DNA of 64,000 nt from Deltaproteobacteria bacterium (GCA_031278395.1 JAITKM010000007.1:222818-286817), one strand, 5' to 3'. Shown: positions 41,984-60,203, counted from the first letter of the stretch. Numbers and translations: made by a program. Notes: generated by a model not told the origin, from the sequence alone.

Positions 41984-42093
41984 CTGGTATGGGGTTACTT
42001 TTGTATATTGAATTTTTATATAATAATTAGTTAATTCAATATATTATATTTTTATAAATCATTAAAAAAGTAAGAAAAGTAACCCCATACCAG
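41984..42093. repeat. MITE/BIME-like palindromic element, full copy A (18-bp terminal inverted repeats CTGGTATGGGGTTACTTT / AAGTAACCCCATACCAG, AT-rich core)
   Basis: Terminal inverted repeats read directly. Same family as 55230-55357 and 60093-60203. Followed by 3x CAGAAAAACC at 42091-42120. Confidence 0.8.
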
Positions 42094-42120
42094 AAAAACC
42101 CCAGAAAAACCAGAAAAAAC

Positions 42121-42258
42121 AATTCCCACTATTGGTAGTGGAGATATTTGTGATATAGGGGGGGACGCTAAATTTTACTTAAGATTAGGTGTGCAAGGGT
42201 TAATAATTGCTCAAGCGTCACTAAAAAATCTGCGAGTGTTTAAGGATATTTTTAATGC
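42121..42258 (+). pseudogene. Diverged duplicate (~85% identity) of dus-gene internal fragment 41611-41745
   Basis: Direct alignment of the two stretches (AATTCCCAC[G/T]ATTGGTAGTGGAGATATTTGTGATATAG... to ...GGATATTTT[C/T]AATGC). The copy ends at the ATG of the downstream ABC ATPase gene. Confidence 0.75.
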
Positions 42259-42995
42259 TAAATGTTATTAACCTACACAAATCGTTTGCTGACCATCTAG
42301 TCATTAACGGCGTGAGTTTCGTTTTAGAAGGTGGAGATCTAGTTGGTTTAGTTGGACCAAGCGGTTGTGGAAAAAGTGTGCTTCTCAAACTTTTGGCAAA
42401 TGTTATCGAGCCGGACCAAGGGCAGATTCTAATGGGAAGTAATATCAACACTCGCCATATGGTTCCGAATGTCTCATATAAGGTAGGCTTCTTGTTTCAA
42501 GAAAGCGCTTTGTTTGATTCTATGACAGTGTTAGAAAATGTGCTTTTTCCTTTAAAAGATGGCGGATTGCGTGAAACAAAACTTAGCGAGAAATCTGCTT
42601 TGGAACGAGCGTATCAAATTTTAACTGAAGTTGGTTTAGCAAAAGCCTACCACAAATTGCCTGGCGAATTAAGTGGTGGTATGCGGCGTCGAGTTGGGAT
42701 TGCTAGAGCTTTGGTGAATAATCCAGATTTAGTTCTGTTAGATGACCCTACTGGTGGGCTTGATCCAGTTGCGGCAAGCGTTATTATGGATCTAATTAAA
42801 AAACTACATCAAACCTATAAGCCGATTGTAGTTTTAGTTAGTCACGATATTCGACGCTTACTGCCCAATGTAAGTCGAGTGTTAGGTTTGTTTAATGGTA
42901 AAATATGTTGTGATTGCTCACCAGAAATGCTTACGACAACCACTCCTGATTATGTTGTTCAGTTTTTAGCTACGAGATATGATTTTAAAAAGTAA
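42255..42995 (+). CDS. ABC transporter ATP-binding protein (MlaF/Ttg2A-like)
   Basis: Walker A GPSGCGKSVL. Signature LSGGMRRRVGIARAL. Walker B LLDDPTGGLD. H-loop SHD. Confidence 0.8.
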   Translation: MLNVINLHKSFADHLVINGVSFVLEGGDLVGLVGPSGCGKSVLLKLLANVIEPDQGQILMGSNINTRHMVPNVSYKVGFLFQESALFDSMTVLENVLFPLKDGGLRETKLSEKSALERAYQILTEVGLAKAYHKLPGELSGGMRRRVGIARALVNNPDLVLLDDPTGGLDPVAASVIMDLIKKLHQTYKPIVVLVSHDIRRLLPNVSRVLGLFNGKICCDCSPEMLTTTTPDYVVQFLATRYDFKK

Positions 42996-43033
42996 AGATA
43001 ATTAGTTCGTGATTGTTGTAATAGGTTAATAGA

Positions 43034-43810
43034 ATGTCAAAATATCAAAATAAAATAAACGAAATTAGAGAAAAATTTTTAGCTGGGATTAGTGTTCCTG
43101 AAAAGAAACCTTTTGTGCCGGATGATTTTCAACTTGAAGCAATTGAATCCTTAAAACAAGGTAAGGATACTTTAGTTGTTGCTCCAACTGGAGCCGGAAA
43201 AACTTATATTGCCTTAGAAGCAATTCAAGAGATTGTAGCGCAAGGCAAGCGGGTGATTTATACAGTTCCGCTTAAGGCTTTATCGAATGCGAAGTATGCT
43301 GAAATGAAAAGGCTTTTTCAAGGAAAGTTCACGGTTGGAATTTTAACCGGCGATAGAAAAATCGACGGCGATAGTGATGTGGTGGTGGCAACTACAGAGA
43401 TTTATCGTAATGAGCTTTACCGCTACTGCGAAAACTATGGTTTGGTAGTGCTGGATGAATTGCACTATTTGTCTGACCCACAGCGTGGGGCAGTTTGGGA
43501 AGAGAGTATTATTCTGGCGCCACGTTCAGCAACCCTCTTAATGTTGTCAGCTTCAATATCTAATTATCAGGAAGTTGCAGAGTGGATAAAAAGTATTCGG
43601 GATAAGGAAGTTAAAATCGTGCATATTACAAAACGTCCAGTAGAGTTAAGACTTGGTTTTTTACATCCGAAGTTGGGATTATTACCTTTGGCAAATGAGA
43701 ATGGCGAACCCTTAGCAGAAGTGCAGAATTTTTATAGTCAGGCTAACGATACATTCCGTGGGAACTTGGGCGGCAGATTTGGTAGAGGAGCAAGACGGGG
43801 ATTTAGATAA
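43034..43810 (+). CDS. Ski2-like/DEAD-DEAH superfamily-2 helicase, N-terminal (RecA1) half, as a separate ORF
   Basis: Motif I APTGAGKT. Motif II DELHY. Motif III SASISN. Ends with a Gly/Arg-rich tail and a TAA stop. Confidence 0.75.
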   Translation: MSKYQNKINEIREKFLAGISVPEKKPFVPDDFQLEAIESLKQGKDTLVVAPTGAGKTYIALEAIQEIVAQGKRVIYTVPLKALSNAKYAEMKRLFQGKFTVGILTGDRKIDGDSDVVVATTEIYRNELYRYCENYGLVVLDELHYLSDPQRGAVWEESIILAPRSATLLMLSASISNYQEVAEWIKSIRDKEVKIVHITKRPVELRLGFLHPKLGLLPLANENGEPLAEVQNFYSQANDTFRGNLGGRFGRGARRGFR

Positions 43811-43855
43811 AGGGAAATTTTAGGAGGTTCCTTAATTAACTAAGGATAAGCATTA

Positions 43856-45310
43856 ATGATTAAAGAATACAATATTACAGATATAGTTTTAGAATTAGAG
43901 CGATGTAATTTATTACCAACTATCGTTTTTAGAACTTCGCGTTCACAGTGCGATTCAGATATTTTAAAGGCGGTAAATAACAAAGCCTTAGCTTTGCCTA
44001 TCTCGCAGCAGCGAGCTATCAAAGATGCGGTCTATGAAATAGCCAAAAATTATGAAATGGAGTTGGAATTAATTACTACCCATCCACATTATAGTAGCTT
44101 AATTAAAACTGGCGTAGGGGCGCATCATGCGGGGCAACTCTTAATGTGGCGGTTGTTGCTTGAGGAGTTAATGTCATTGGGAGTGTTAAAAGTTCTTTGT
44201 GCAACAGGAACTGTCGCGGCTGGTGTTGACTTTCCAGCTCGCACAACTGTGGTAACAGCCCATACGAAGCGTGGGCATGACGGTTATAATAAGTTACTTT
44301 CAACAGAGTTTCAGCAGATGTCGGGTCGAGCGGGGCGTCGTGGTAAAGATATAGTTGGTTTTTGTGTAGCAGCGCCCTCGGCGTTTTGTGATGCTCGTGA
44401 ATTATTGAAGTTGTCTAAAACTCCGCCAGAGCCGTTGATGTCCGCATATTTTCCAAGCCCTAGCACAGTTTTAAATTTGTTACGCTATCGCAATGTTGAT
44501 GATTTACGTTTTACGGTGGAGCGGAGTTTAGCCAGTTTTGCCGATAAGAAGCAGGCTGTAATTTTGGAGAAAGAGGCGGCTGAGGTTGATGAAAAAATTA
44601 AAGTTAAAGAAGATCTAGTTGGGCGCTTGAAAGGACATCAGAAAGACAATGAAACTAAGGCGCTGACTAAGTTAATCAAGAAGTCTAAACGACTACACAC
44701 GCAAGCTGAGGAATTAAAGAATAAGCAAGGGACGTTGTTAGATCGAACGATAGCCGGTCTGCGGCAATTAGGGCATTTGAATAATTTTACCCTTTCAGAT
44801 AAGGGGTATTGGAGCGCTAATCTTTGCACAGGTATGGTTTTGGAATTAGCTGAAATAATAGAGGCGGGATATTTTGATCATATTAGTCCAGAGCGGTTAG
44901 CGACAATTTTGGCAGGTATTTGTGGTGAAGATCATCGTCAGTATTTAAAGGCGAGTAAATCTCCGATTTCAGATGCTGATTTTCAAGGGTTAAATGAAAT
45001 TTTAAAGCGTGTTCAAGACATGAACTTACCGGGAGCGCCGACGGAGATAAATGTTATAGTTCCTAATGCGGCATACACTATGGAAGTTTGGTTGCAAGCT
45101 GAGAACTGGCAGGAATTTCGGGCGATGTTGTTGTTGAATGGCGCAGCAGAGGGGGATGCTGCTAGATTAATTACCCAAACTGCAGAGCATTTAAATCAGC
45201 TCAAACGGCTTGACGAGAAGTTTCCAAAATTAGCCAAGCGAGCCGAGGAAGCCCGTCGCAGAATTTTAAGACCGCCTCTTACAGAAGCAATTAATTTAGA
45301 TAGCGTTTAA
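43856..45310 (+). CDS. Ski2-like helicase, C-terminal (RecA2 + winged-helix/ratchet) half, as a separate ORF
   Basis: Motif IV region IVFRTSRSQCD. Motif V/VI (ATGTVAAGVDFPARTTV; QMSGRAGRRG). Has its own leader motif and ATG. Confidence 0.75.
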   Translation: MIKEYNITDIVLELERCNLLPTIVFRTSRSQCDSDILKAVNNKALALPISQQRAIKDAVYEIAKNYEMELELITTHPHYSSLIKTGVGAHHAGQLLMWRLLLEELMSLGVLKVLCATGTVAAGVDFPARTTVVTAHTKRGHDGYNKLLSTEFQQMSGRAGRRGKDIVGFCVAAPSAFCDARELLKLSKTPPEPLMSAYFPSPSTVLNLLRYRNVDDLRFTVERSLASFADKKQAVILEKEAAEVDEKIKVKEDLVGRLKGHQKDNETKALTKLIKKSKRLHTQAEELKNKQGTLLDRTIAGLRQLGHLNNFTLSDKGYWSANLCTGMVLELAEIIEAGYFDHISPERLATILAGICGEDHRQYLKASKSPISDADFQGLNEILKRVQDMNLPGAPTEINVIVPNAAYTMEVWLQAENWQEFRAMLLLNGAAEGDAARLITQTAEHLNQLKRLDEKFPKLAKRAEEARRRILRPPLTEAINLDSV

Positions 45311-45394
45311 TTTTGATATAGACAGAGACTAATTCTTCAACTCGTAAAAAACTAATAGATAGTAGATAGTTAGAGTAGTTTAGAGTAGTTTTTT

Positions 45395-45413
45395 CTGGTA
45401 TGGGGTTACTTTT
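45395..45413. repeat. Solo left arm of the palindromic element family (CTGGTATGGGGTTACTTTT)
   Basis: Exact arm match with no partner arm within 150 bp. Preceded by short tandem AGTAGATAGT/TAGAGTAGTT repeats. Confidence 0.6.
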
Positions 45414-45599
45414 ATATTTTACTTTTATACTTTTGTATCTAGTTTCATCTAGAACAGCGGATCAGTTAAGATTTATGCTGAATTTTAATATGTATTTATA
45501 TTTTAGGACAAGGTCGTTTAAAGAAATTATGAGATATTGTCGATTGTTAGAGTAGTAGAGTGTTAAAAAATTAAGGTCTTTGAAATAGGGAGGAGGTTT

Positions 45600-46574
45600 T
45601 TGGCTATTCAAAAAATTTTATCAGCAGATATTGGTGGAACGAATGGGCGCTTTGCTTATTTTAGCTACGAGGTCGAGGCAAAAAAACTTGAATTAGTAAA
45701 AACCCATTGGATCTCATTAGGACAACTAGAAGAAAAATATTCCAAACCAACTTTAATCGCTATTCTTTCACAGCTGGATTTTGGTTTTGAACTAAACGAG
45801 TTTGACGTTTTAGTGATAGCAGTCGCCTGTCCAATAACTGAACGAAAATTAAAACTGACTAATAATTTACTGACTCTAGACTTAGACGAATTAGAAGCCA
45901 ATTTTAAATGTGTTAGATTACTTAATGACTTTGTTGCGCAAGCCTGCTCTTGTCTTTCTGACCTCAAAGAAACTAGCCGAATAATTCAGCTGGGCAAAAC
46001 AAATCCCAATTCACCCATTGCAGTGGTTGGGGCTGGCACTGGATTTGGTAAAGCCTATATTGTGCCAAACCAAAACGCACCTCTTATTTGCTCCGCCGAA
46101 GGCGGTCAGGCAGCTTTTGCAATGCAAAGTAGGGAAGAAATGGAATTTGCAGAATTTGTTAAAGACCGCCTTGGGGTAACATATCCAAATTACGATAATA
46201 TTGTGTCTGGGTTAGGTTTAACGCTGTTACATGAATTTCTAACTGGTGAGAAACTCAAGCCTCAAGAAATTGCAGCACAATTTACTAACAATCCAAAGCT
46301 TAAAACATTAGAATGGTTTTCAGGTTTTTATGGACGAGCTGGACGAAATTATGTGCTGGAAACACTGGCGTTGGGTGGTTTATTTATTTCTGGTGGAATT
46401 GCTATTAAAAATCCGATTATTATTAGTCATGAAGCTTTTAGGGCTAATTTCATTGATTCAAAAAAGTGTTCAAAGCTTTTACAAGAAGTGCCGATAAGGT
46501 TGTTGACTAATGAAGCGAGCGGTTTATGGGGGGCAGCAGAATTTTGGAGATTGAAGCAGTTAAATTCTTTTTAA
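45600..46574 (+). CDS. glk: Glucokinase (Glk family)
   Basis: N-terminal ATP-binding motif DIGGTNGRFAYF. TTG start with GGAGGAGG 6 nt upstream. Confidence 0.8.
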   Translation: MAIQKILSADIGGTNGRFAYFSYEVEAKKLELVKTHWISLGQLEEKYSKPTLIAILSQLDFGFELNEFDVLVIAVACPITERKLKLTNNLLTLDLDELEANFKCVRLLNDFVAQACSCLSDLKETSRIIQLGKTNPNSPIAVVGAGTGFGKAYIVPNQNAPLICSAEGGQAAFAMQSREEMEFAEFVKDRLGVTYPNYDNIVSGLGLTLLHEFLTGEKLKPQEIAAQFTNNPKLKTLEWFSGFYGRAGRNYVLETLALGGLFISGGIAIKNPIIISHEAFRANFIDSKKCSKLLQEVPIRLLTNEASGLWGAAEFWRLKQLNSF

Positions 46575-46583
46575 TTAAAAATT

Positions 46584-47069
46584 ATGGATTTAGAACTATT
46601 AAATATTTTTACACAATCAGCGGTGAGTGTGATTGAAACAATGGCATTTACAAAAGTTGCTGTTGGCAAACCAGTCTTGAAAGTAGAGAAGGTTACTAAC
46701 GGGGATGTTACTGGTATTATTGGGCTTGCTAATTCAGAGTTTAAAGGGACTTTAGTGATTAGCTTTGAGGCTGAAGCAATAATTGCAGTGGTCAATAACA
46801 TGTTGGGTAGCAATTACACAGAAATGAGTAGCGATGTTATTGATGCAGTTGGCGAAATTACAAATATGATTTGTGGCGCTTCTAAACGTTCTCTTGCCGA
46901 TAGTAAACAGATAATCTTAGATATGGCTTCGCCAACTACTATAATTGGTAGAGATTTAATGATTAATTTTCCGGGTAGCTTACCAGTGGTAGAAATTCCT
47001 TTTGCAACAGAAAAAGGTAAATTTATAATTGATATTACGCTAGGCAAGGAACATCAGTCATTAATTTGA
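46584..47069 (+). CDS. cheX: CheX/CheC-family chemotaxis phosphatase-like protein
   Basis: ~160 aa with a CheX-like conserved block (VGEITNMICGASKRSL). Confidence 0.55.
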   Translation: MDLELLNIFTQSAVSVIETMAFTKVAVGKPVLKVEKVTNGDVTGIIGLANSEFKGTLVISFEAEAIIAVVNNMLGSNYTEMSSDVIDAVGEITNMICGASKRSLADSKQIILDMASPTTIIGRDLMINFPGSLPVVEIPFATEKGKFIIDITLGKEHQSLI

Positions 47070-48617
47070 GAATTTACCTAGCATCACAATTATTTTTGAG
47101 GGGTGGTGAATTACTGCAAAAATAAACGGACGTTCAGCAATAAAAGAAAGCTGTTCAGTATTTTCACTCAAGTTTGTGTTTGCTGCAGTAGCAGTGCCTT
47201 TATCTATAGTAGTTAAATTAGCTTGTTGAATATAAGGATTTAAAAATAAATCAGTAGTGCCGGTAATGCCGGATAAATCAGCTTTGCCGGTAAAGATATC
47301 TGACACGCCTAGTTTTGTTAATTTTTCTTTGACATTAATTCTGGAACTAATTTTTAATTTTGGCACTTTAATATATAATTCCTTCTCGGTGAGAGAAGTT
47401 TCGATAGTATTAATTAGTTCAGCTGATAAAATATTTTCAAGTTCTGCAATGGACATACTGGCATTGGGTAAAATAAATAACAGAGCCAACTCTTGCTCCG
47501 CTGGTTTTAATTCCAGAGCTTGAAAATCTTGGTTAGCAAGATATAAATAATTATTCTTACCAGTAATATAATGTAGCCTTTTTGTTCCAGTGTTATGGGA
47601 GGTAAAAGTTCCTTCGGTTGAAGTAAAATTTTTGTCAAAGGTCAAAGTTAGATTAAACAGATCAGCAATTACCATTCTAGTTGAGATTTTAATTTCTTTA
47701 TTAAAAAGATTTTCAATGTTTTGTTCCGATTTGCTAAAGACCCAGTCATTGATTCTTTTTTGGGTGAAATCAATATCGTTGAAGAAGTCCGATTTATCAA
47801 AATTTAATAGAAAATAATCATTTAGATAGTCATTAAACTCTTTTTGGATGTAATTATTGTCATTTGCCCAGATATTAGAACGATAATAGGAACTATCTTT
47901 ATTGGCTAAAAATATATTGTTAATAGAATTAAAGGTTTCTTTAAAACGCACGCCAATACTTTTTAGATTTTTATCTAGACCTAAGATGTCCTGCATTTGT
48001 TTTTTAGTTTCGTTTTTACTACCAGCGTATAAAGCTGCTAGGTGATGCATTATACTATAAGTTGCCACAACAAAAGAGTCTTCTTTTGTTGCCATGGTTT
48101 GGTAAAGCTTAAGAGAAAATTGGTTATTAGCTGTGGTGATGTCGAAATTTTCTAATAGTTGATCTTGTAAGGGAATAATTTTTTCTTCTTTAACTGGCTC
48201 AGTGATTGTGGCAGATGATTCTACCTCTAGACTATTAGTAGTTGATTTTGAGATTCTAGAGTTTTTAGGCTTGACTTCTTCAAACTGGATATTATTTTTA
48301 CTAACAGCTTGTGCAGTTAGTGGGGCTAGAGATAACGAACAAGCCAGGATGATGAGTAGTATGATTTTGGTTTTATGTTTTAAAACGTCAGATAGAATGT
48401 GCTGAGTAAGTTTATTGATTAGTTTTTTATTAACTGAGACTTCTTCTGCAACATCATAAATGGCACAGATAAGTTCGCCTATAGTGGTATTAAGACTAGA
48501 TTGCGATTGATGGTTTGCTGCGTTTTTTCCCACTTTTATAGGTTTGATTGGCAGTGTGTGGCTAGGTTTAGCATGAGGATTAATTTTTTTCCTATTACTG
48601 TTAGTAACTTTTTCCAT
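47061..48617 (-). CDS. Serpin-family protease inhibitor with ~150-aa N-terminal extension containing a hydrophobic anchor
   Basis: C-terminal serpin signature (FIAERPFIFAVIHHPSKIIVMLGKFSN). Hinge/reactive-centre-loop region upstream. N-terminal hydrophobic segment IILLIILACSLSLAPLTAQA. Confidence 0.8.
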   Translation of the reverse strand: MEKVTNSNRKKINPHAKPSHTLPIKPIKVGKNAANHQSQSSLNTTIGELICAIYDVAEEVSVNKKLINKLTQHILSDVLKHKTKIILLIILACSLSLAPLTAQAVSKNNIQFEEVKPKNSRISKSTTNSLEVESSATITEPVKEEKIIPLQDQLLENFDITTANNQFSLKLYQTMATKEDSFVVATYSIMHHLAALYAGSKNETKKQMQDILGLDKNLKSIGVRFKETFNSINNIFLANKDSSYYRSNIWANDNNYIQKEFNDYLNDYFLLNFDKSDFFNDIDFTQKRINDWVFSKSEQNIENLFNKEIKISTRMVIADLFNLTLTFDKNFTSTEGTFTSHNTGTKRLHYITGKNNYLYLANQDFQALELKPAEQELALLFILPNASMSIAELENILSAELINTIETSLTEKELYIKVPKLKISSRINVKEKLTKLGVSDIFTGKADLSGITGTTDLFLNPYIQQANLTTIDKGTATAANTNLSENTEQLSFIAERPFIFAVIHHPSKIIVMLGKFSN

Positions 48618-48702
48618 TTTATCTCCCGAAACTAGTTATGGTTTTAATGATGTTTTGAGATGTTCTAAACCATGAATTAGATACAAATTTTTGGTCGGGA
48701 GA

Positions 48703-48738
48703 TTTTGGTATCGGGTTCTTGGGATTTTGGTATCGGGT
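48703..48738. repeat. Two degenerate tandem copies of the element arm (TTTTGGTATCGGGTT x2) downstream of the HUH transposase gene
   Basis: Differs from the family arm TTTTGGTATGGGGTT at a single position, and is duplicated 21 bp apart. Confidence 0.5.
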
Positions 48739-49013
48739 TATTAGATTTTTCTTAGTTTTTTTAGTGTCTAATAAGAATTTTTTATTTTATAAAACATCGA
48801 TTTGAAGGGGATAAAAGATAAGAAATTAGTAAAAAGATATATATTGTCAATTCATATGTAGTAGAATTAGTTATTCTCCATGTAACTTATTTAGTTTTTT
48901 ATAAAAAAAAGTTAAAAAGCATATATTTTTCCATAGTTGTCAGTGCAATTTATATCAAATCAGGCTTTTGCATGTAAAATTTTCGATTAATTTACCGCTT
49001 TAAAAAGAACTTG

Positions 49014-49988
49014 TTAAGTTAAAAATAAATTCGGAGGTATATGTTCAAGAAATTCTCCACCCGGCATAAACATTCCAGCCGGAAACAAGATATTACATAA
49101 ACCATTCTTTATTGTTTTATAAGCTTGCTTTGCAATTTGCGTCAGAGATCTGAAATAAGTGATATATGTTTTACGTAATTCGATATTGGAACTGATACAG
49201 AGCATTCTTTTGCTATATTTGGCTGACTTAAATTTTTTATTTATATGTTGAGTTTTAAGTTTTTTTGCTCCGACGACCCCTTTGGGATGTTCTAGTTTTT
49301 TCTCTTCTTCAATAACTTCCTTGATAATTTGATTATTTATTTCCTCAGGATTATTATCTTTATATTCAATAAATCCCTCCATCCAAGCATTAGGTTCTAA
49401 TTCAAAAGTGTGAAATATAGGTTTATCTCCGGCTAGGTTATTAATAAGTTCTTTTTGTTTTTTATCTGTCATTAAAGCTAAGTTGTTTATTTTATAAAAT
49501 TGCGAACGTTTTATCCAAACACATTCTTTTCTATATTCTTTCTTTTTAAACATACTCCAAGAAGAAAGTCCTGGATATTGTTCGATAGAGTTGACTAGAT
49601 CAGCAGAGGCAGGATTTTTATAAATATATTTAATAGTATCAATAACTTTGTCGTAGGTTAAAACTATTGGATCGTCAAATCCATCATTCCAGACGGTATT
49701 TTGTCGAATGCCACAGATTCTATTGATAGCAGAGGCTGATTCTAATTTTAAGAGTCTAATAAAGTTAGGTATATCTGCTGGGTTTCTCACAACTGCGAGT
49801 ATATGAAAGTGGTTAGACATAAAGACAAAGTGACAGATTGAGATGTTATACAAAGATTTAGCGCGTGCTAATATGCCTATTAATGCTGTATTGATTAGGG
49901 GGTATGCAGGAAATGGCAAATCTTTTTCAACGCGTGAGGTTATAAATAATACTGTATTTTCAACATATAATTTTCTTTTCTTAGCCAT
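49014..49988 (-). CDS. HUH-motif Y1 tyrosine transposase (IS200/IS605 TnpA / REP-associated RAYT-like) with ~170-aa C-terminal extension
   Basis: HUH motif NHFHILAVV. The Y/NP/LV/WSS block IKYIYKNPASADLVNSIEQYPGLSSWSMF is typical of Transposase_17/RAYT proteins. Confidence 0.7.
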   Translation of the reverse strand: MAKKRKLYVENTVLFITSRVEKDLPFPAYPLINTALIGILARAKSLYNISICHFVFMSNHFHILAVVRNPADIPNFIRLLKLESASAINRICGIRQNTVWNDGFDDPIVLTYDKVIDTIKYIYKNPASADLVNSIEQYPGLSSWSMFKKKEYRKECVWIKRSQFYKINNLALMTDKKQKELINNLAGDKPIFHTFELEPNAWMEGFIEYKDNNPEEINNQIIKEVIEEEKKLEHPKGVVGAKKLKTQHINKKFKSAKYSKRMLCISSNIELRKTYITYFRSLTQIAKQAYKTIKNGLCNILFPAGMFMPGGEFLEHIPPNLFLT

Positions 49989-50101
49989 AATAGATAGCTC
50001 CGATTGGTAAATTTTTATAAATAAAGAGGTGAGGTTATAACCTCGCTATATACCTATCGGGTGAAATTCTTATTGTTTTCATATGTTCGCTGTCGTAAAT
50101 A

Positions 50102-50175
50102 TAACCCCATACCAGTTCGCGCCAGTTCCAGTTCGCGCCCGCGCGAGTTCGCCAATTAGTAACCCCATACCAGTT
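50102..50175. repeat. Two direct copies of the element right arm (TAACCCCATACCAGTT) flanking a GC-rich CCAGTTCGCGCC-type spacer, upstream of the transposase gene
   Basis: Exact arm sequence at 50102-50117 and 50160-50175. Confidence 0.7.
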
Positions 50176-53010: not shown

Positions 53011-53161
53011 TTGTAGGGCAGCCCTGATGGTTGTTGTCCTTAGATCTGTTTTTTTTATCCGGATTTTCATAAATTAATACTAATTTTTTTCGTGTTAATT
53101 CGTGGATAAAAAAAGCTAGAACGGTTCAGATTTCTTATTAATTGTAAATTTAAAGTTTTTT

Positions 53162-53896: not shown

Positions 53897-55212
53897 AGTT
53901 AGCAAATGAACAAAAAATACAGCGAGCGCCTTTGGCAGAGCGGATGCGCCCACGCACCTTGGATGAAGTTCTAGGGCAGGATAAAATTATTGGACCCAAG
54001 TCTTCGTTTGGGCAAATTATTCGAAACCCACTAGCATCTGTTCCGTCAGTAATTTTTTGGGGACCGCCGGGAACTGGCAAAACAACCTTAGCTCAAGTTA
54101 TTGCCGCAACAGGTAATTATAATTTTGTTCGGTTATCTGGTGTGCTGGATGGAGTGGCTGAGTTAAGAAAGATTGTAGCGGATGCGTTAGAAATGCAAAA
54201 AGCAGAAGGTAAGCCGACACTAGCCTTAGTAGATGAAATTCACCGTTTTAATAAATCACAACAAGATGCTTTTTTACCGCATGTTGAATCGGGATTATTA
54301 ACTGTTATTGGGCAAACCACTGAAAATGTAAGTTTTAGAATTCGTAACGCCTTACTGAGTAGGATGCGAGTATTGCCGCTGGAAGCTCTGGACGAGGAAG
54401 TTATCGTGAAAATCCTGAATAATGCTATCAACGATAAGGAGCGAGGTTTAGGAGGATGGGGAATAAAACTGGAGGCAGATGCTGCAGAATTAATTGCCAA
54501 ATATAGTATTGGGGATGCTAGACGAGCTTTAAATTGTTTGGAGTGGGCAGCAGCATATGTGCGCGCTGAAAATACGACGATCATCAATAAAGAAGTGGTT
54601 AATAATTCATTTAATAAGCAGCCGCAGTTATTTGATCAGAGCGATGACTATCACTACGACAATATTTCAGCGTTTATTAAGTCTATGCGTGGGTCTGATC
54701 CAGATGCGGCTTTGTATTATATGATGAATGCGTTGGAGGGTGGTGAAGATCCGTTGTTTTTGACGCGGCGGATGATAATTTTTGCTTCTGAAGATTGTAG
54801 TTGTGATCCGCGGGCTTTAGAAATTGCTTTAAATGTTGATCAAGCTGTGCAGAGAGTTGGTATGCCAGAGGGGCGAATTCCGCTAGCGCAGGGGGTAGTA
54901 TATTTATCATGTTGTGCGAAATCCAATGCTTCTTATTTGGCAATGGAAGCAATGACGGCAATTGTGCGGGAGAATCAAAATTTAGAAATTCCGCGTCGAA
55001 TTAGAAATGCCCCGACAGATTTAATGAAAAAAATGGGCAATCATTTAGGTTATCATTATCCACATAATTATCCAGGTGGTTTTTATCCAGAGCGCTATTT
55101 GCCCGATAAGTTGGGGGATTTAATTGTGTATGAACCGACTGACAGGGGTTTGGATGCACAAATTAAAGAGCGTTTAACGAAATACCGTGAATTAATAAAA
55201 CAAGCGAAATAA
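53893..55212 (+). CDS. rarA: Replication-associated recombination protein A (AAA+ ATPase RarA/MgsA)
   Basis: Walker A GPPGTGKTTLA, Walker B LVDEIHRFNK, and the MgsA C-terminal helical domain. Confidence 0.9.
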   Translation: MKLANEQKIQRAPLAERMRPRTLDEVLGQDKIIGPKSSFGQIIRNPLASVPSVIFWGPPGTGKTTLAQVIAATGNYNFVRLSGVLDGVAELRKIVADALEMQKAEGKPTLALVDEIHRFNKSQQDAFLPHVESGLLTVIGQTTENVSFRIRNALLSRMRVLPLEALDEEVIVKILNNAINDKERGLGGWGIKLEADAAELIAKYSIGDARRALNCLEWAAAYVRAENTTIINKEVVNNSFNKQPQLFDQSDDYHYDNISAFIKSMRGSDPDAALYYMMNALEGGEDPLFLTRRMIIFASEDCSCDPRALEIALNVDQAVQRVGMPEGRIPLAQGVVYLSCCAKSNASYLAMEAMTAIVRENQNLEIPRRIRNAPTDLMKKMGNHLGYHYPHNYPGGFYPERYLPDKLGDLIVYEPTDRGLDAQIKERLTKYRELIKQAK

Positions 55213-55229
55213 TGAAAGTTTCTAGTTCA

Positions 55230-55357
55230 CTGGTATGGGGTTACTTTATTTCCTATGTCTTTTATATTTTTATTTAAAAAATATCACATTATTTAAGTAT
55301 ATTATTGTTACTAAAATCATTAAAAATATAAGAAAATAAAGTAACCCCATACCAGTT
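55230..55357. repeat. MITE/BIME-like palindromic element, full copy D
   Basis: Arms CTGGTATGGGGTTACTTT and AAAGTAACCCCATACCAGTT. The core shares TAAGTATATTAT and AAAATATAAGAAA with copy E. Confidence 0.8.
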
Positions 55358-55552
55358 GACCCAGTTGAATATAGAGATTCCATAGAATAATTATGGTATT
55401 TTCGATTTTTGCAACTATTTATCTTGATTGTCATCTAATTCATAACAGTATTGTGCATATAGACTTCTAAGCCAATATTTATGCTTTATACATTTTTCGC
55501 GTATCGAAAATATTAACACTACAAGCGTAGTAATATATTCTATTTTTTACAT

Positions 55553-57616
55553 ATGAAAATCTATATTAATTTTTTTAAACGAATATCAATTGCATCAAAA
55601 CTTTTTGTTATTTTATTACCGATTCTGATTATTGGACTTGGAATATCAGTTTTTTATACTAATAAAGTTACTAACGAAAGAGTGACTGAACAAGTTGTTC
55701 GCGAACTGCAGGAATTATCTCTATCATATTCCAAAGAGATTAGTCTGGTTTTGACTTCGGCATATACTGTCGCCAAAACAACAGCAGATGGTTTTGCTAA
55801 TATAATAGCAAGTGGTGTTGCAACCCGTGAAAATTTAGTTGATTTTTACACTGGTATTTTACAACAACATCAAGAATACACAGGTGTTGGATTTTTATTT
55901 GAACCTAATGCTCTAGACGGTAATGATTACGAATTTAAGGGGACTCAATACCATGATGAGACTGGACGTGCAATGGTCTACTTAACTTTTGACGACAAAG
56001 GTGCAATCGTCCGTGAAGCAATTACTGGCTATGATATTCCTGGTGAAGGTGATTGGTATTTAAAGCCTAAAGCCAATAACAAACCTATCTTAACCGAAGC
56101 TTATAATTATGTAGCCAATGGCAAAAAAATCTTACTGACTACTATTGCTGTACCAATTATAGTTGATAGACAGTTTTTAGGTGTAGTTACAATTGATTTG
56201 CCTTTAACAAAAATTGCAGAATTAGTTGCAAAAATTAAAGTATTAAGCAGCGGCTATGCATTTATGATTTCTGATGCTAATGCTTTTGTAACACACACTA
56301 AACCAGAAAATATCGGAGTTAACTTGCTAGAGTTTAATTCTTTATGGAAACCATATGAACAAGATTTTAAATCTGGCAGGTCGTTTCAAGCTTCTCATAT
56401 TTCTAAAGCTACCAAACGTAAGACTAACTATTTTATTGCTCCCGTTAGTATTCCAGATATTGAACAACGTTGGAAATTATTACTAAATGTTCCGGAACAA
56501 GAAGCTTTGCAAACAGTTTTTGCAATTTCTAATGTTCTGTTATATTCATCAGGACTTTTATTATTGGTTTTAAGTCTAGGTATTTATATTGTAGCTAGAA
56601 ATATTAGCTGCCCAGTAAAAAATATGGCTGACTTAATGTTAGAACTAGCTAACGGTAACCGTTTAGTTGAAATACCATATCAAGATCATACTGATGAACT
56701 AGGAGAGATAGCACAGGCAATGGGTATTTTTAAGAAAAACTTGAGCCAGATGGATACCGCCGAAGAACGTAAGCAAATTATGGCAAAGATGGCAGACGAA
56801 TTAGATAACGGTGTTGGTATGATTGCCCGTTCGTTATCTGAAGCAGTTCAGCGTCTTAATAGTATAGCGCAAGACGCTGGACTAGCAGCGACAAATGCAA
56901 TGGAACAGTCTGAACATGGTTCAGAGACATCATGTCAAACTGCAGCAAATGTTCAAACTGTAGCTACGGCTACTGAACAATTGTCTGGCGCTATTCAAGA
57001 AATTTCACAGCAGATTTTAGAGTCAAATGAAATAGTTAATAACGCAGTTAAAGAAGCTGAAGATACTTCGCGTGTGATGAATGCTCTCTTGGTGTCCGCC
57101 TCACAAATTAGGGAAGTTATAGCCTTAATTAAGGATATTGCTAGCAGAACTAATTTGTTGGCACTAAATGCGACAATTGAGGCTGCCAGAGCTGGCGAGA
57201 CTGGTAAGGGATTTGCAGTTGTTGCAGGAGAAGTAAAATCGCTGGCAGCTCAGACTAGTGAAGCTACTGAAAAGATTGCAGAGAAAATTTCAGAAGTTCA
57301 AAAAATTACTGACGATGCAGTGAATGCAATTAAACATATAAATGAAGTGATTGTGAAGGTAAATCAAATTACAACTACTATTGCTGCTGCTGTAGAAGAA
57401 CAGGGGGCAGCGACTAAAGATATTAATCAGAGTACGCAACAAGCAAGTTTGGGGACACAAAATGTCTCGCAAAACATTTCTTCTGTTCATGAGTCTGTAA
57501 AGCTAGTTGCCCAGAATGCAAAAGATGTTGAGAAGACTTCTACTGAATTGACTGAATTAGGTGAAAACCTTAAAAATAAGGTTACTTCATTTTTGTCGCA
57601 TATTTATCAAGGATGA
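55553..57616 (+). CDS. Methyl-accepting chemotaxis protein (periplasmic Cache-like sensor + HAMP + MCP signalling domain)
   Basis: Two TM segments flank a ~280-aa periplasmic domain. HAMP region. Conserved MCP hairpin (ASRTNLLALNATIEAARAGETGKGFAVVAGEVKSLA). Confidence 0.9.
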   Translation: MKIYINFFKRISIASKLFVILLPILIIGLGISVFYTNKVTNERVTEQVVRELQELSLSYSKEISLVLTSAYTVAKTTADGFANIIASGVATRENLVDFYTGILQQHQEYTGVGFLFEPNALDGNDYEFKGTQYHDETGRAMVYLTFDDKGAIVREAITGYDIPGEGDWYLKPKANNKPILTEAYNYVANGKKILLTTIAVPIIVDRQFLGVVTIDLPLTKIAELVAKIKVLSSGYAFMISDANAFVTHTKPENIGVNLLEFNSLWKPYEQDFKSGRSFQASHISKATKRKTNYFIAPVSIPDIEQRWKLLLNVPEQEALQTVFAISNVLLYSSGLLLLVLSLGIYIVARNISCPVKNMADLMLELANGNRLVEIPYQDHTDELGEIAQAMGIFKKNLSQMDTAEERKQIMAKMADELDNGVGMIARSLSEAVQRLNSIAQDAGLAATNAMEQSEHGSETSCQTAANVQTVATATEQLSGAIQEISQQILESNEIVNNAVKEAEDTSRVMNALLVSASQIREVIALIKDIASRTNLLALNATIEAARAGETGKGFAVVAGEVKSLAAQTSEATEKIAEKISEVQKITDDAVNAIKHINEVIVKVNQITTTIAAAVEEQGAATKDINQSTQQASLGTQNVSQNISSVHESVKLVAQNAKDVEKTSTELTELGENLKNKVTSFLSHIYQG

Positions 57617-57628
57617 TCATGAAAATTA

Positions 57629-58357
57629 ATGCTAAACAATAAAAATAAAAACAGAAGACAGAATAATAGTAGAGAATATAATCGTAGTGCCAGACGTGAG
57701 AGGTTGACTAAGAGTTTAAATATTCTACGTGAACGAGTTCATTTAATTGAACTAGAACTTGAAGAATACACGAATGATTTTTTTAGGGTCTGCATTTTTG
57801 GTAGTGCCAGAATTAAGCCAGACGATAAAATGTATAAGCAAGTTTTTCAGCTTGCGTTTTCGCTTGGTGAGTTGGGGATTGATGTGTTAACTGGTGGTGG
57901 ACCTGGCATGATGGCGGCAGCCAATAAGGGGATTATTGAAGGTCGTCAGGAATTTAATACCCATAGTAGGTCAATTGGTATTTCAGTGGATTTAAATAAT
58001 TTTGAACCATTAAATTCGTATTTAGATATTAAACATCATCATAAAAAATTTTCTTCTAGGTTGGATGATTTTATGCGACTTTCCAATGCTGTAGTGATTA
58101 CAGCTGGCGGGATTGGGACTCTCTTAGAAATTTATTATACTTGGCAGTTATTGCAGTTAAAATTAATTTCATCGCGTCCCTTTATTTTTTGGGGTTCAGA
58201 AATGTGGGGCGATTTGATTGACTGGATGAAAAAGAGGCAACTAGCAAACGGTTTAGTTAGTGGGAGTGATTTCAGTTTTATTCATATTGTTGATACAGCC
58301 GAAGAGGTAGTTCAGATTATCAAAGAGCATTACGATAAATTTAAAGCCAAACATTAA
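57629..58357 (+). CDS. LOG-family (TIGR00730) Rossmann-fold nucleotide-binding protein with basic N-terminal extension
   Basis: GGGPGMMAAANKG and ITAGGIGTLLEI motifs. ~50-aa N/R/K-rich N-terminus. Confidence 0.75.
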   Translation: MLNNKNKNRRQNNSREYNRSARRERLTKSLNILRERVHLIELELEEYTNDFFRVCIFGSARIKPDDKMYKQVFQLAFSLGELGIDVLTGGGPGMMAAANKGIIEGRQEFNTHSRSIGISVDLNNFEPLNSYLDIKHHHKKFSSRLDDFMRLSNAVVITAGGIGTLLEIYYTWQLLQLKLISSRPFIFWGSEMWGDLIDWMKKRQLANGLVSGSDFSFIHIVDTAEEVVQIIKEHYDKFKAKH

Positions 58358-58379
58358 TCATTTCTTTTTTGAAAGGACA

Positions 58380-58412
58380 GTAGCACAGGCAATACTGCCT
58401 GTGTATCAAAAC
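58380..58412. repeat. REP-like palindrome copy 4 (GTAGCACAGGCAATACTGCCTGTGTATCAAAAC), followed by a second GC hairpin
   Basis: Near-identical to copy 3. A second hairpin GTCGGCGAAGCCGAC follows immediately. Confidence 0.6.
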
Positions 58413-58486
58413 AGCGAGGCGTCGGCGAAGCCGACACGGGGGGGATTATGCCTTTGCTACTGTTTGGTATAATCGTTTGTTTGAGT

Positions 58487-59281
58487 TCACTTAGCAAAAT
58501 TAATAAATGGGACGCTGTTACCCAACATATATTGCGGCAAGATACCATTCCATTTTTGAACAGCTTCGTATTGAACTAGGCTAGCATTTTGCGTAAGTGC
58601 ATTAGCTCTAATACGCATGGATTCTGCTTCGGCTTGTGCGGAAATAATTTTTTGATTAGCCTCTTCTTTTATTCGCAAAGTATTGTTTTGAGATTCAATT
58701 GCCCTTTGAGTTGCGACAACTTTTGCTTCAATTGCCTTTTCAAAAACCTCACTATAGTCAATATTCGTGATTGATACAGCTTCTAAAATTATAGGATAGC
58801 CAACAAAACTTTGCGTTAAGATCTCCTTAATATCCGCCGCGCCTTTATCACGATTGGCAATTAACTCAACCGCATCCCACTTACCAAGAGCAGCTTTAGT
58901 CGAGTCTTGCACTCTTTGCATGATAATCTTTCTAAACCAGTCCTGCCCATATTTTTCATATGTTTCAACAATTTTTGACTCCTCCAGATGAACATTGATG
59001 GCAATTTTAATTTCCGCTTGTTGAACATCCTTAGTATAAACATTAGTTACTTCTTCGTGTTTGATAAGCTTAATATCGAAAACTTTAATCTCTTGAATTA
59101 CTGGAATAAACAAAACCAGCCCAGGCTTAAGCATTTCTTGAGAAGCTCTACCAAAAGTTAGTTTCACCCCACGCTCACCTTCGTCAATTGTAGTAAATGG
59201 TTTTAAAAACAACAATGCTAGCAAAATAAATGCTACAACAAATAATTTTTTTTCAAGGTTCAAGTCCACCATTTTCGCCAT
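58487..59281 (-). CDS. SPFH/band-7 (prohibitin/HflC-like) membrane protein
   Basis: N-terminal TM anchor, SPFH domain pattern and a C-terminal coiled coil. Confidence 0.8.
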   Translation of the reverse strand: MAKMVDLNLEKKLFVVAFILLALLFLKPFTTIDEGERGVKLTFGRASQEMLKPGLVLFIPVIQEIKVFDIKLIKHEEVTNVYTKDVQQAEIKIAINVHLEESKIVETYEKYGQDWFRKIIMQRVQDSTKAALGKWDAVELIANRDKGAADIKEILTQSFVGYPIILEAVSITNIDYSEVFEKAIEAKVVATQRAIESQNNTLRIKEEANQKIISAQAEAESMRIRANALTQNASLVQYEAVQKWNGILPQYMLGNSVPFINFAK

Positions 59282-59308
59282 TTCTTTGTCCTCCTAAATT
59301 TTAAATAC

Positions 59309-59875
59309 CTACTGTAATATGTATGTTGTTAAATAATATAAATCATCGCTTTTGTTACGGGCTTTACCACAAACTACCTGAGCAGTTAGGCTATAACCAT
59401 TAGCTTCTGTTTGGAGAATATGGTATTCATACTGCGGACTACAGTCTCCAGAACAACGTTTATATAAATCTTTACCTTCCTGACCATTACCCTGTGAAAA
59501 ATCTGAAATCCAATCCAGCAAAGCGCTGTTGTTGTAAAAAGTTTTATTAGTATAGCTCAGCGGGGTTTTAGATGTTTCTGTGAAACGAGTAGCGCAGGAA
59601 ACGCCGGCAGCATCTGTTTTGCCTTCTAAAAAAGTCGTTGGGATAGAAGTGAAAATAATAGTTGCTTTTTCCTGACCAACTTTTGCAAGAGCTTCTGTCA
59701 GTAGTTGGTTGGATTTGAATTTAATAGAATTTTCACTATTCCAGAGATTGCTTGTAATACTAGCTGTTGCTGTAACTTGATTAAGTTTAGTTTTCTTTAA
59801 AGTTTGAGCCGTTGTGATATTTAACGCCAAACAGGTAATGAAAGTGAGAATAATTAATTTAAAGATGTTTTGCAT
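59309..59875 (-). CDS. Secreted hypothetical protein
   Basis: Signal peptide (LTFITCLALNITTAQT). Four Cys. Downstream of and co-oriented with the LRR protein. Confidence 0.45.
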   Translation of the reverse strand: MQNIFKLIILTFITCLALNITTAQTLKKTKLNQVTATASITSNLWNSENSIKFKSNQLLTEALAKVGQEKATIIFTSIPTTFLEGKTDAAGVSCATRFTETSKTPLSYTNKTFYNNSALLDWISDFSQGNGQEGKDLYKRCSGDCSPQYEYHILQTEANGYSLTAQVVCGKARNKSDDLYYLTTYILQ

Positions 59876-60092
59876 ATATAATAGGGGTGTTTTTATGATA
59901 TTAGATATTTTTAGTCTCAGATTGTTATTTTACTCCACACTTTGAGCCTTGATTACATATAATTAATTCAGCCAGTTAGATGTTCTTAAAAAAATCTTTA
60001 TCCTTTTATATACATTTTGTCAGGGAAGCAACTGTTGTTTGCGGTGTTACCAAATATCGAATAATGGCAATTCTAATAGTTCTGGATTTTTT

Positions 60093-60203
60093 TGGTATGG
60101 GGTTACTTTGATATTTAGATATCTAAAAAAATAACAAATAAATTAAGTATATTATAGTATTTAATACACTGAAAATATAAGAAATAAAGTAACCCTGTAC
60201 CAG
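60093..60203. repeat. MITE/BIME-like palindromic element, full copy E, overlapping the 3' end of the LRR gene
   Basis: Arms TGGTATGGGGTTACTTT and AAAGTAACCCTGTACCAG. The last ~28 codons of the LRR ORF are read from this element. Confidence 0.8.

What the first reader, a model, noticed from the sequence alone, without database searches (positions are those of the whole stretch)
41984..60203. Family of ~110-130 bp MITE/BIME-like elements with 18-bp terminal inverted repeats: 3 full and several partial copies in 64 kb
Full copies at 41984-42093, 55230-55357 and 60093-60203 share arms CTGGTATGGGGTTACTTT / AAAGTAACCCCATACCAG, an AT-rich core, and conserved internal blocks (TAAGTATATTAT, AAAATATAAGAAA). 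A solo arm lies at 45395-45413 and arm pairs flank the transposase gene (48703-48738; 50102-50175). All copies sit at gene 3' ends or intergenic regions. This density suggests an active or recently active non-autonomous element. The arms could fold into a long hairpin in RNA or ssDNA. That is relevant to Y1-transposase recognition and to transcript stability.
Basis: seen in the sequence. Interest (0 to 1): 0.6.

Follow-up and report, generated by a model that had tools for sequence, protein, structure and literature searches.

The report
Hairpin repeats tied to Y1 transposase
The repeats are real: they are small hairpin-forming doublets of an 18-base "arm" that also brackets a nearby tyrosine (HUH/Y1) transposase gene, making this a new example, in an uncultured Bdellovibrio-like bacterium, of the known REPIN/RAYT or "TIRtron" kind of miniature mobile DNA.

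Summary
The arm CTGGTATGGGGTTACTTT occurs 9 times (0.04 expected by chance). It forms three 110-126 bp inverted doublets (41984-42093, 55230-55355, 60092-60203) and one solo arm (45395). Arm variants lie on both sides of a 324-aa Y1 gene (49014-49988, minus strand).

That gene has the HUH and Y---NP motifs of class-2 "RAYT" transposases. Its closest solved structure is the E. coli REP transposase (4ER8). It also carries an unannotated 185-aa C-terminal domain that recurs in at least 257 protein clusters.

In eight homologous loci the arm sequence changes along with the protein but keeps its position: about 100-125 nt upstream and 220-340 nt downstream of the gene. The outer CTGG end is kept in most of them.

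Single arms do not fold on their own and carry no GTAG tag. They are therefore terminal inverted repeats (TIRYT/TIRtron type, Di Nocera 2013), arranged as REPIN-like doublets.

The same MAG appears to encode three diverged paralogues, and a further element copy lies on another contig.

One feature I could not find described: short tandem "stutter" duplications that reuse CCAG plus adjacent flank pile up at arm edges in most lineages examined.

Genome-wide copy number and current mobility could not be tested. Verdict: a new member of a known kind, of moderate interest.

The parts
41984..42093 (+). Full doublet c1. Arms are 41984-42001 and 42076-42093; the perfect inverted repeat extends to 41977-42002 / 42075-42100. 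It lies 12 nt after the dus stop codon.
   Evidence: (I12)
42089..42119 (+). Outer 'stutter' next to the c1 right arm: CCAGAAAAAC | CCCAGAAAAAC | CAGAAAAAAC.
42120..42259 (+). A 140-nt diverged copy (87-95% identical) of an internal dus fragment (41610-41746). It begins exactly where the c1 stutter ends, and the ATG of the ABC-transporter ORF (42255) lies in its last bases.
   Evidence: (D4, D11)
45395..45412 (+). Solo arm (left-arm type). Tandem micro-duplications lie on both sides (45356-45391 and 45406-45434). The segment 45395-45545 is bracketed by the direct repeat GTTAGAGTAGT.
48702..48750 (+). Two tandem arm variants (TTTTGGTATCGGGTT, period 22) about 273-295 nt downstream of the Y1 gene stop. 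They are inverted relative to the upstream arms.
49014..49988 (-). Y1 (HUH) tyrosine transposase gene, 324 aa. Motifs are NHFH (residues 59-62) and YIYKNP (121-126). The N-terminal domain is RAYT-like. The C-terminal ~185 aa form an unannotated conserved domain.
50031..50044 (-). Stem-loop GAGGTTATAACCTC preceded by CGATAGG, about 45-60 nt upstream of the Y1 ATG. The same position holds stem-loops of different sequence in three homologous loci.
50098..50173 (-). Two upstream arms (50098-50115 and 50156-50173, both minus strand). Between them lie the stutter GCGAACTGG / AACTGG / CGCGAACTGG and a GC-rich palindrome. Synteny with relative L026 starts no more than 5 nt outside 50173.
55230..55355 (+). 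Full doublet c2. Arms are 55230-55247 and 55338-55355. It lies 17 nt after the rarA/mgsA stop codon. The outer stutter CCAGTTGAC | CCAGTTGAA follows the right arm.
   Evidence: (I16)
60092..60203 (+). Full but decaying doublet c3. Its arms are TTGGTATGGGGTTACTTT and CTGGTACAGGGTTACTTT. It provides the last ~29 codons and the stop codon of the minus-strand LRR-like repeat ORF.

Best explanation
This is a REPtron/TIRtron-type system. A class-2 Y1 (HUH) transposase gene is bracketed by short inverted arms (5'-CTGGTAT[G/C]GGGTTAC...). The same arms occur nearby as non-coding inverted doublets of 110-126 bp, which are REPIN-like, and as singlets at gene 3' ends.

Shown:
- The arms are far more frequent than chance.
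- They flank the Y1 gene in inverted orientation.
- The arm sequence co-varies with the Y1 protein across homologous loci, while arm position is kept and the outer CTGG end is kept in most loci.
- The doublets fold into long hairpins as single strands.
- The enzyme keeps its catalytic motifs and has a RAYT-like fold.

Inferred:
- The Y1 enzyme binds the arms. For doublets this would most likely be the hairpin extruded from single-stranded DNA at the replication fork.
- It nicks at or next to the conserved outer CTGG/CCAG through a 5'-phosphotyrosine link, then rejoins, which moves or copies arms and doublets without target duplication.
- Repeated nick/extend/rejoin, or polymerase slippage at the bound site, would leave the short tandem duplications (CCAG plus flank) seen at arm edges.
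- As a by-product, hairpins in 3' UTRs could stabilise or terminate transcripts, as REPs do.
For: - Arm excess.
- Hairpins.
- Y1 identity: Pfam Y1_Tnp 31.8 bits. NCBIfam REP_Tyr_transpos 59.7 bits, below the cut-off of 80. N59, H60, H62, Y121, N125 and P126 are invariant in 19 homologues. The best PDB match is 4ER8, E. coli TnpA-REP bound to a REP (E 1.6e-7, target TM 0.71).
- Co-variation of arms with protein and conserved spacing: CTGGTATCGGGTTCC / GGAACCCGATACCAG in L024 (86% identity), CTGGTACCGGGTTAC in L012 (81%), CTGGTATCGGGTT in L018 (73%), GCTGGTATTAGGTTC in L021 (56%), CTGGTGCAGCCCTA in L025 (52%), GAACGGGGTTACTTTT / AAAAGTAACCCTGTTC in L022 and L023 (38%).
- Three diverged paralogues (100/81/76% identity) carry neighbouring accessions of one MAG submission.
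- Another element copy lies on contig L012.
- The right half of the doublets resembles the gene's downstream end.
- A single arm is present in L023 and absent in L022.
- A synteny break lies at the outer edge of an arm.
- Tandem micro-duplications are enriched at arms. Over all loci, 25 of 82 arrays lie in 2.4% of the DNA. In window non-coding DNA alone, 6 of 11 lie in 10% (P = 3e-4).
- The concept fits the published descriptions of REPINs and RAYTs (PMC3116915) and of TIRYTs and TIRtrons (PMC3733652, PMC6006769).
Against: - No transposition event of a doublet was observed.
- No empty orthologous site was found for c1, c2 or c3.
- Genome-wide copy number is unknown: the exact-arm scans of genome and metagenome collections returned only chance hits plus L003.
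- All arms in the 73 kb available lie within 11 kb of the gene.
- Interiors are only ~65-70% alike, so the copies are not recent duplicates of one another.
- Single arms have no hairpin. The hairpin-recognition mode known for IS608 and for E. coli TnpA-REP therefore cannot apply to singlets.
- The NCBIfam RAYT model is matched below its cut-off.
- The role of the C-terminal domain is unknown.
Confidence: 0.72

Rival explanations
1. This is an ordinary autonomous insertion sequence. The ~1.47-kb arm-to-arm unit (48702-50173) would be the IS, and the 110-126 bp elements would be its internal-deletion MITEs. The system would be purely selfish and horizontally spreading, not a long-term resident RAYT-like system.
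For: - The Y1 unit sits in a different gene context in every relative.
- It sits at a synteny break relative to L026.
- The Logan assembly of the same organism breaks inside the gene, at window ~49409 and ~49955, as expected for a repeated gene.
- The right half of the doublets resembles the gene's downstream end.
Against: - The three copies attributed to the same MAG are only 76-81% identical. Active ISs have near-identical copies, about 99% for IS200 according to Table 1 of PMC6006769.
- Each paralogue examined has its own arm variant.
- No target duplication is present.
- The Y---NP motif belongs to class 2 (RAYT-like), not to IS200 (Y---Q).
Confidence: 0.18
2. These are host cis-elements, such as 3'-UTR hairpins, terminators or a protein-binding site, kept by selection. 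Their link to the Y1 gene would be incidental or secondary, and they would not be mobile.
For: - All four non-gene-flanking sites lie 0-85 nt from a stop codon.
- The arms are perfectly conserved while the interiors drift.
- T/A runs abut several arms.
Against: - No match to any Rfam family.
- None of the elements scores as an intrinsic terminator.
- The arms bracket the Y1 gene at conserved distances and co-vary with it in eight loci. A host regulatory site would not do this.
- One copy runs into a coding region.
- Several assembly contigs end at arms: L003, L012, L017, L018 and L024.
Confidence: 0.07
3. The copies arose by local segmental duplication or recombination around the Y1 gene, not by dispersal.
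For: All arms in 73 kb lie within 11 kb of the gene. A partial dus duplication lies next to c1.
Against: Flanks of c1, c2, c3 and the solo arm are unrelated. A further copy lies on another contig of the same run and MAG. The identical arm is present in another MAG.
Confidence: 0.03

Closest known systems
TIRtrons / TIRYTs (Di Nocera, De Gregorio and Rocco 2013, PMC3733652; discussed as subclass 2.1 in Quentin et al. 2018, PMC6006769)
   Same: A RAYT-like Y1 gene is flanked by inverted repeats that are not GTAG-tagged REP hairpins. The arms sit at roughly fixed distances from the gene. The arms also occur elsewhere as moderately abundant singlets and dimers. The arm contains GGGGTTAC, which matches the published motif GGGGWSAS at 7 of 8 positions.
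   Different: The published TIRYTs mostly belong to subclass 2.1 (median 238 aa) with a C-terminal helix-turn-helix similar to DnaA_C, HTH_23 or HTH_28. This protein is 324 aa. Its 185-aa C-terminal domain has no Pfam match and forms its own family of at least 257 clusters. The host lineage, an uncultured Bdellovibrionota-like 'Deltaproteobacteria' MAG, is new.
REPIN-RAYT systems (Bertels and Rainey 2011, PMC3116915; Bertels et al. 2017, PMC5581495)
   Same: The elements are inverted doublets of a conserved ~16-18-mer separated by a less conserved spacer (inter-repeat spacings of 71 and 110 bp in P. fluorescens SBW25; 72-90 nt between arms here). They are predicted to form a long hairpin in single-stranded DNA. 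Singlets look like decayed remnants. The repeat flanks a Y1 gene with the Y---NP motif. One genome holds several diverged paralogues, each examined one with its own repeat variant.
   Different: Each REP is itself a small palindrome, usually GTAG-tagged. Here a single arm has no self-structure (0 kcal/mol) and no GTAG. Abundance (tens to hundreds per genome) was not shown. The protein is twice as long as typical RAYTs.
IS200/IS605 family (IS608, ISDra2) and their miniature derivatives
   Same: The catalytic domain has the same HUH/Y1 fold (ranks 2-25). No target-site duplication is seen. All copies share one orientation on the leading strand (GC skew positive throughout), which suits single-strand transposition at the fork, but n = 4.
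   Different: IS200-type enzymes are ~150 aa with a Y---Q motif. Their ends are different subterminal hairpins rather than inverted repeats. They often travel with tnpB and occur as near-identical copies. None of this applies here.
Classical bacterial MITEs (Correia/NEMIS, RUP, ERIC) and E. coli BIMEs
   Same: Similar size (about 100-130 bp), terminal inverted repeats, location next to genes, and hairpin potential in transcripts.
   Different: Classical MITEs derive from DDE-transposase ISs and carry target-site duplications, which were not seen here. BIMEs are mosaics of palindromic REPs, and these arms are not palindromic.

Membership tests
REPIN-RAYT system | Associated Y1/HUH transposase of the RAYT type (HUH motif and Y---NP motif) | tested here: met
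   NHFH and YIYKNP are invariant in 19 homologues. Pfam Y1_Tnp is above its cut-off. The best structural match is 4ER8, TnpA-REP. The NCBIfam RAYT equivalog scores only 59.7 bits against a cut-off of 80, so this is a relative, not an equivalog.
REPIN-RAYT system | The repeat flanks the transposase gene on both sides | tested here: met
   Arms at 50098-50173 (upstream) and 48702-50 (downstream) are inverted relative to each other. The same layout occurs in L024, L018 and L025.
REPIN-RAYT system | Each repeat unit (REP) is itself a short imperfect palindrome, typically GTAG-tagged | tested here: not met
   Single arms with their flanks fold at 0 kcal/mol. No GTAG lies at the arm ends.
REPIN-RAYT system | Inverted doublets with a spacer that form a hairpin | tested here: met
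   c1 and c2 have 26-nt stems that are 96-100% complementary, with z-scores of -10.7 and -7.9.
REPIN-RAYT system | High genome-wide abundance of the flanking 16-mer, dispersed in extragenic space | not testable with these tools
   The MAG is not in the searchable genome set. Only 73 kb plus contig L012 were available.
TIRtron / TIRYT | RAYT-like gene flanked by terminal inverted repeats unrelated to GTAG REPs | tested here: met
TIRtron / TIRYT | GGGGWSAS motif in the TIR (present in the majority of published cases) | tested here: inconclusive
   GGGGTTAC matches at 7 of 8 positions. Paralogue and relative arms have CGGGTTAC, AGGGTTAC or GCAGCCC instead.
TIRtron / TIRYT (subclass 2.1 of Quentin et al.) | C-terminal helix-turn-helix domain (DnaA_C / HTH_23 / HTH_28-like); median length 238 aa | tested here: not met
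   No Pfam hit beyond Y1_Tnp in the 324-aa protein. The C-terminal 175 aa recover ~325-aa proteins with the same architecture only.
TnpA-Y1 subclass 2.3 (Quentin et al.; median 325 aa) | 55-aa insertion between beta3 and alphaC of the core; NHYH and YVDLNP motifs | tested here: not met
   The HUH-to-Y spacing is 59 residues, leaving no room for the insertion, and the motifs are NHFH and YIYKNP. Family features were taken from Table 1 of PMC6006769.
IS200/IS605 | Short (~150 aa) Y1 enzyme with Y---Q motif; different subterminal hairpins at the two ends; near-identical multiple copies | tested here: not met
   The motif is Y---NP. The ends are inverted repeats. The paralogues are 76-81% identical.
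Classical (DDE-derived) MITE | Target-site duplication flanking the TIRs | tested here: not met
   The 12-nt flanks of c1, c2 and c3 share no direct repeat. No DDE transposase lies near the elements.

The most novel reading that the evidence does not exclude
The short tandem arrays at arm edges are units made of the outer CCAG plus 5-12 nt of flank, repeated up to about ten times in L025. The 140-nt templated dus patch that begins exactly at the end of the c1 stutter may belong with them. On this reading, both are footprints of repeated nick-extend-rejoin by this Y1 enzyme at a CCAG cleavage site. The system would then be a distinct TnpA-Y1 subclass with a new 185-aa C-terminal domain that recognises non-palindromic arms. 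It would actively write templated micro-duplications, and occasionally larger patches, into gene 3' ends. That would reveal the cleavage site and a mutagenic by-activity not described for RAYTs or TIRYTs.
Probability: 0.2. Interest if true: 0.65.

Novelty: new member of a known kind. Interest (0 to 1): 0.42.

Why it matters
How REP-like repeats spread is still poorly understood. Biochemistry exists essentially for one enzyme, E. coli TnpA-REP, and the TIR-flanked relatives (TIRYTs) have not been studied functionally.

This locus offers a compact, readable example in a little-known lineage. It combines a catalytically intact Y1 gene, arms that co-vary with it, hairpin doublets, singlets, apparently three diverged paralogues in one genome, and a conserved outer tetranucleotide (CTGG in most loci) marked by stutter duplications. 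The stutter points to where the enzyme probably cuts, which gives a directly testable substrate prediction.

It also shows these elements reshaping genes. One supplies a new C-terminus to a repeat protein, one has a templated patch next to dus, and one arm lies at a synteny break.

If the full genome shows only a handful of copies, the finding is simply one more TIRtron.

Tried and rejected
- **Exact-arm scans of public collections.** The genome scan gave 11 loci, of which 10 are single chance hits and only L003 is real. The metagenome scan gave 3 hits, all inside coding sequence and therefore chance. The viral scan gave none. The source MAG is not in the searchable genome set, so genome-wide counting failed.
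- **Extending the window.** The left side gained 9.1 kb (L016) with no arms. The right side could not be extended, because the Logan contig ends at c3 and the large ORF runs off the window.
- **Exact-protein look-ups.** P0001 and P0004 are not on record.
- **PDB sequence search with the Y1 protein.** No meaningful hit. Only the fold search worked.
- **Rfam and terminator scans.** Neither found anything at the elements.
- **Rejected readings.** A classical MITE is rejected because there is no target-site duplication. A BIME or REP is rejected because the arms are not palindromic. IS200/IS605 is rejected on motif, ends and copy identity. Subclass 2.3 is rejected because the core insertion is absent.
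- **L003 as a Y1 locus.** Its ORFs were checked for a Y1 gene and none was found.
- **Copy-specific extension of the inverted repeat into the flanks** (c1 GGTTTTT, c2 TTCA). I considered this as evidence for fold-back formation or palindromic targets. The support is too weak to claim.


Full report
**1.

The 18-mer CTGGTATGGGGTTACTTT matches 9 times with up to 3 mismatches, against 0.04 expected, and none of 100 shuffles came close. Core searches add two variant copies at 48706 and 48728.

The arms form three inverted doublets:
- c1, 41984-42093
- c2, 55230-55355
- c3, 60092-60203

There is also one solo arm (45395-45412), and two arms lie on each side of a 324-aa ORF on the minus strand (49014-49988).

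As single-stranded DNA, c1 and c2 fold into hairpins with 26-bp stems (-34.9 and -28.3 kcal/mol; z -10.7 and -7.9). c3 has three arm mismatches and folds weakly.

The interiors are AT-rich and only about 65-70% alike, but they share blocks and align in one orientation. The flanks are unrelated, so these are not segmental duplications.

c1, c2 and the solo arm lie 12-85 nt after stop codons. c3 supplies the last ~29 codons and the stop codon of a large LRR-like repeat protein.

**2. The neighbouring gene is a class-2 Y1 (HUH) transposase of the RAYT type**

- Pfam Y1_Tnp is matched above its cut-off.
- The NCBIfam model 'REP-associated tyrosine transposase' is matched over its whole length, but below its cut-off (59.7 against 80 bits).
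- In an alignment of 19 homologues, NHFH (HUH) and Y121-x3-N125-P126 are invariant. Y---NP is the class-2 (TnpA-REP) signature, whereas IS200 has Y---Q (Table 1 of PMC6006769).
- An AlphaFold model (pLDDT 81.8) has E. coli TnpA-REP bound to a REP hairpin (4ER8) as its best PDB match (E 1.6e-7, target TM 0.71). ISDra2 and IS608 transposases follow.
- Residues ~150-324 have no Pfam match. A search with this part alone recovers 257 cluster representatives. Most of those listed are ~315-335 aa with the domain in the same place, the rest look like fragments, and 8 of 10 sampled carry a Y1_Tnp hit at E <= 0.01, four of them just below Pfam's 23-bit cut-off.

The length and C-terminal domain fit none of the subclasses tabulated by Quentin et al. 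Subclass 2.1 has an HTH tail and a median of 238 aa. Subclass 2.3 is 325 aa but has a 55-aa core insertion that is absent here.

**3. The arms belong to the gene**

I read homologous Y1 loci that are 86, 81, 73, 56, 54, 52 and 38% identical to this protein (L024, L012, L018, L020/L021, L019, L025, L022/L023). Where enough flank was present on the contig, inverted arms bracket the gene at conserved distances, about 100-125 nt before the ATG and 220-340 nt after the stop.

The arm sequence changes with the protein:
- CTGGTATCGGGTTCC
- CTGGTACCGGGTTAC
- GCTGGTATTAGGTTC
- CTGGTGCAGCCCTA
- GAACGGGGTTACTTTT

The outer CTGG/CCAG end is kept in most loci, though not in L019 (CTTG) or L022/L023 (GAAC).

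The inner ~50 nt of the doublets' right half resemble the gene's downstream end.

A single arm has no self-structure (0 kcal/mol) and no GTAG tag. The arms are therefore terminal inverted repeats in the sense of the TIRYT/TIRtron description (PMC3733652). They are arranged in hairpin-forming doublets like REPINs (PMC3116915).

**4. The source organism, and whether the family is confined to this locus**

The window comes from a 301,962-nt contig of a MAG labelled Deltaproteobacteria. GC content is 36% and GC skew is positive throughout.

The same organism is present in the Logan assembly of SRR14710901 at 99.99% identity.

Three Y1 paralogues (100, 81 and 76% identity) carry neighbouring NCBI accessions, MDR2337401, MDR2337761 and MDR2337786, and so most likely sit in the same MAG. 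This resembles the multiple diverged RAYTs of P. fluorescens SBW25 rather than the near-identical copies of an active IS.

Contig L012 carries the 81% paralogue and comes from the same run. It begins inside another copy of the element family whose arm, AAAGTAACCCTGTACCA, is also the variant found in c3's right arm.

A different Bdellovibrionales MAG (L003) holds the identical arm at the end of a different 116-nt repeat, present twice.

Contigs L003, L012, L017, L018 and L024 all end at or within arms, as expected for multi-copy repeats.

The family is therefore not confined to this locus. True copy number could not be measured, because the MAG is not in the searchable genome set and the metagenome hits were chance.

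Within the 73 kb available, all arms lie within 11 kb of the Y1 gene. That has a probability of roughly 0.01 under uniform placement. The test is post hoc and the pattern is unexplained.

**5. Indications of activity**

(a) In the 38% relative, two otherwise nearly identical contigs from different samples differ by the precise presence or absence of a 26-nt single arm (TTTTTTTTTAGAACGGGGTTACTTTT) upstream of the Y1 gene.

(b) Nucleotide synteny with a relative whose FtsK is 84% identical (L026) starts no more than 5 nt outside the outer upstream arm. In that relative rpsO occupies the place of the Y1 gene and the serpin gene.

(c) Short tandem duplications pile up at arm edges. Examples:
- CCAGAAAAAC, three copies, at c1
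- CCAGTTGA, two copies, at c2
- GCGAACTGG, three copies, upstream of the gene
- CCAGAATGTT, three copies, in L003
- AAAAAAGCTGG, three copies, in L021
- about ten CCAGTAAT... units in L025

Over all loci, 25 of 82 TRF arrays lie within 25 nt of arms, which cover 2.4% of the DNA. Within window non-coding DNA alone, 6 of 11 arrays lie in the 10% near arms (P = 3e-4).

(d) A 140-nt diverged copy of an internal dus fragment starts exactly where the c1 stutter ends.

These patterns fit either repeated nick/extend/rejoin at the conserved outer tetranucleotide, or polymerase slippage and template switching at a bound or hairpin block. I cannot separate the two.

**6. Mechanism**

Shown: a catalytically intact RAYT-like Y1 enzyme, cognate co-varying inverted arms, and hairpin-forming doublets.

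Inferred, from the established chemistry of IS608, ISDra2 and TnpA-REP: the enzyme acts on single-stranded DNA, cleaves next to CTGG/CCAG through a 5'-phosphotyrosine intermediate, and rejoins. This moves arms and doublets without target duplication, and none is seen.

All four non-flanking copies share one orientation on the leading strand. That suits fork-coupled single-strand transposition, but n = 4.

Singlets lack a hairpin, so recognition must differ from E. coli TnpA-REP. The new C-terminal domain is the obvious candidate for arm binding, but this is speculation.

A conserved CGATAGG motif followed by a stem-loop of varying sequence lies 45-60 nt upstream of the ATG in four loci. It may regulate the gene, as the leader hairpins of IS200 do.

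**7. Comparison with known systems and verdict**

The system works like a REPIN-RAYT system. It meets the loose definition of a TIRtron. It fails the REP-palindrome criterion, the HTH tail of subclass 2.1, the core insertion of subclass 2.3, and all IS200/IS605 criteria apart from the fold.

It is best filed as a new member of the TIRYT/REPIN kind in a new lineage, with a Y1 protein that probably represents an unclassified subclass.

The stutter signature is the one feature I could not find described. If it reflects enzyme action it would pinpoint the cleavage site.

Interest is moderate.

Noticed in passing
window 42120-42259 (copy of 41610-41746): A 140-nt, 87-95% identical copy of an internal fragment of the dus gene sits immediately after the c1 stutter. 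The ATG of the downstream ABC-transporter ORF (42255) lies in its last bases. It looks like a templated patch inserted at the foot of the hairpin.
   Followed up: partly
window 60115-64000 (minus strand): A very large ORF runs off the right end of the window. It contains 11 tandem 63-nt (21-aa) LRR-like repeats (LTSAEGLQLPEYVGG...; 60224-60919). Its C-terminal ~29 aa and stop codon are encoded by element c3.
   Followed up: partly
window 6689, 9702, 22651, 28186, 38142, 40074, 54981 (32-nt motif, + strand): A second repeat family, unrelated to the finding, has the consensus TTTAGAGGTyCCCTGAAnTATTAGAGATACCC. In five of the seven copies it ends 0-16 nt before a start codon, so it may be a conserved promoter or leader motif. 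The copy at 54981 lies inside the rarA ORF.
   Followed up: no
window 14292-14329, 31994-32031, 58374-58411: A third small repeat contains the hairpin CACAGGCAATCCTGCCTGTG. It occurs three times in intergenic DNA and could be a terminator or another REP-like element.
   Followed up: no
window 50031-50060; L024, L012 and L018 upstream regions: A conserved CGATAGG motif is followed by a stem-loop whose sequence differs between loci but which keeps pairing. It lies 45-60 nt upstream of the Y1 start codon and is a possible regulatory leader.
   Followed up: partly
L022 vs L023 (Y1 relative, 38% identity): Two near-identical contigs from different samples differ by a precise 26-nt single-arm indel. 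They also differ by a 99-nt indel of unknown nature upstream of the Y1 gene.
   Followed up: partly
L020 and L025 (both from assembly GCA_031548505.1): One MAG carries two Y1 paralogues (P0011 and P0018) with different arm types. An arm of the P0018 type (CTGGTGCAGCCCT), with stutter, also lies ~450 nt upstream of the P0011 gene.
   Followed up: partly
window 47061-48617 (minus strand): A 518-aa serpin gene lies directly downstream of the Y1 unit. Serpins are uncommon in bacteria. This gene and the Y1 gene are absent from the corresponding place in the relative L026, where rpsO lies instead.
   Followed up: no
window ~49409 and ~49955; 60109: The Logan contigs of the same organism end inside the Y1 gene and at the left arm of c3. 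This is consistent with repeated or polymorphic sequence in the sample, although the break at c3 may instead be due to the adjacent 63-nt tandem repeats.
   Followed up: partly
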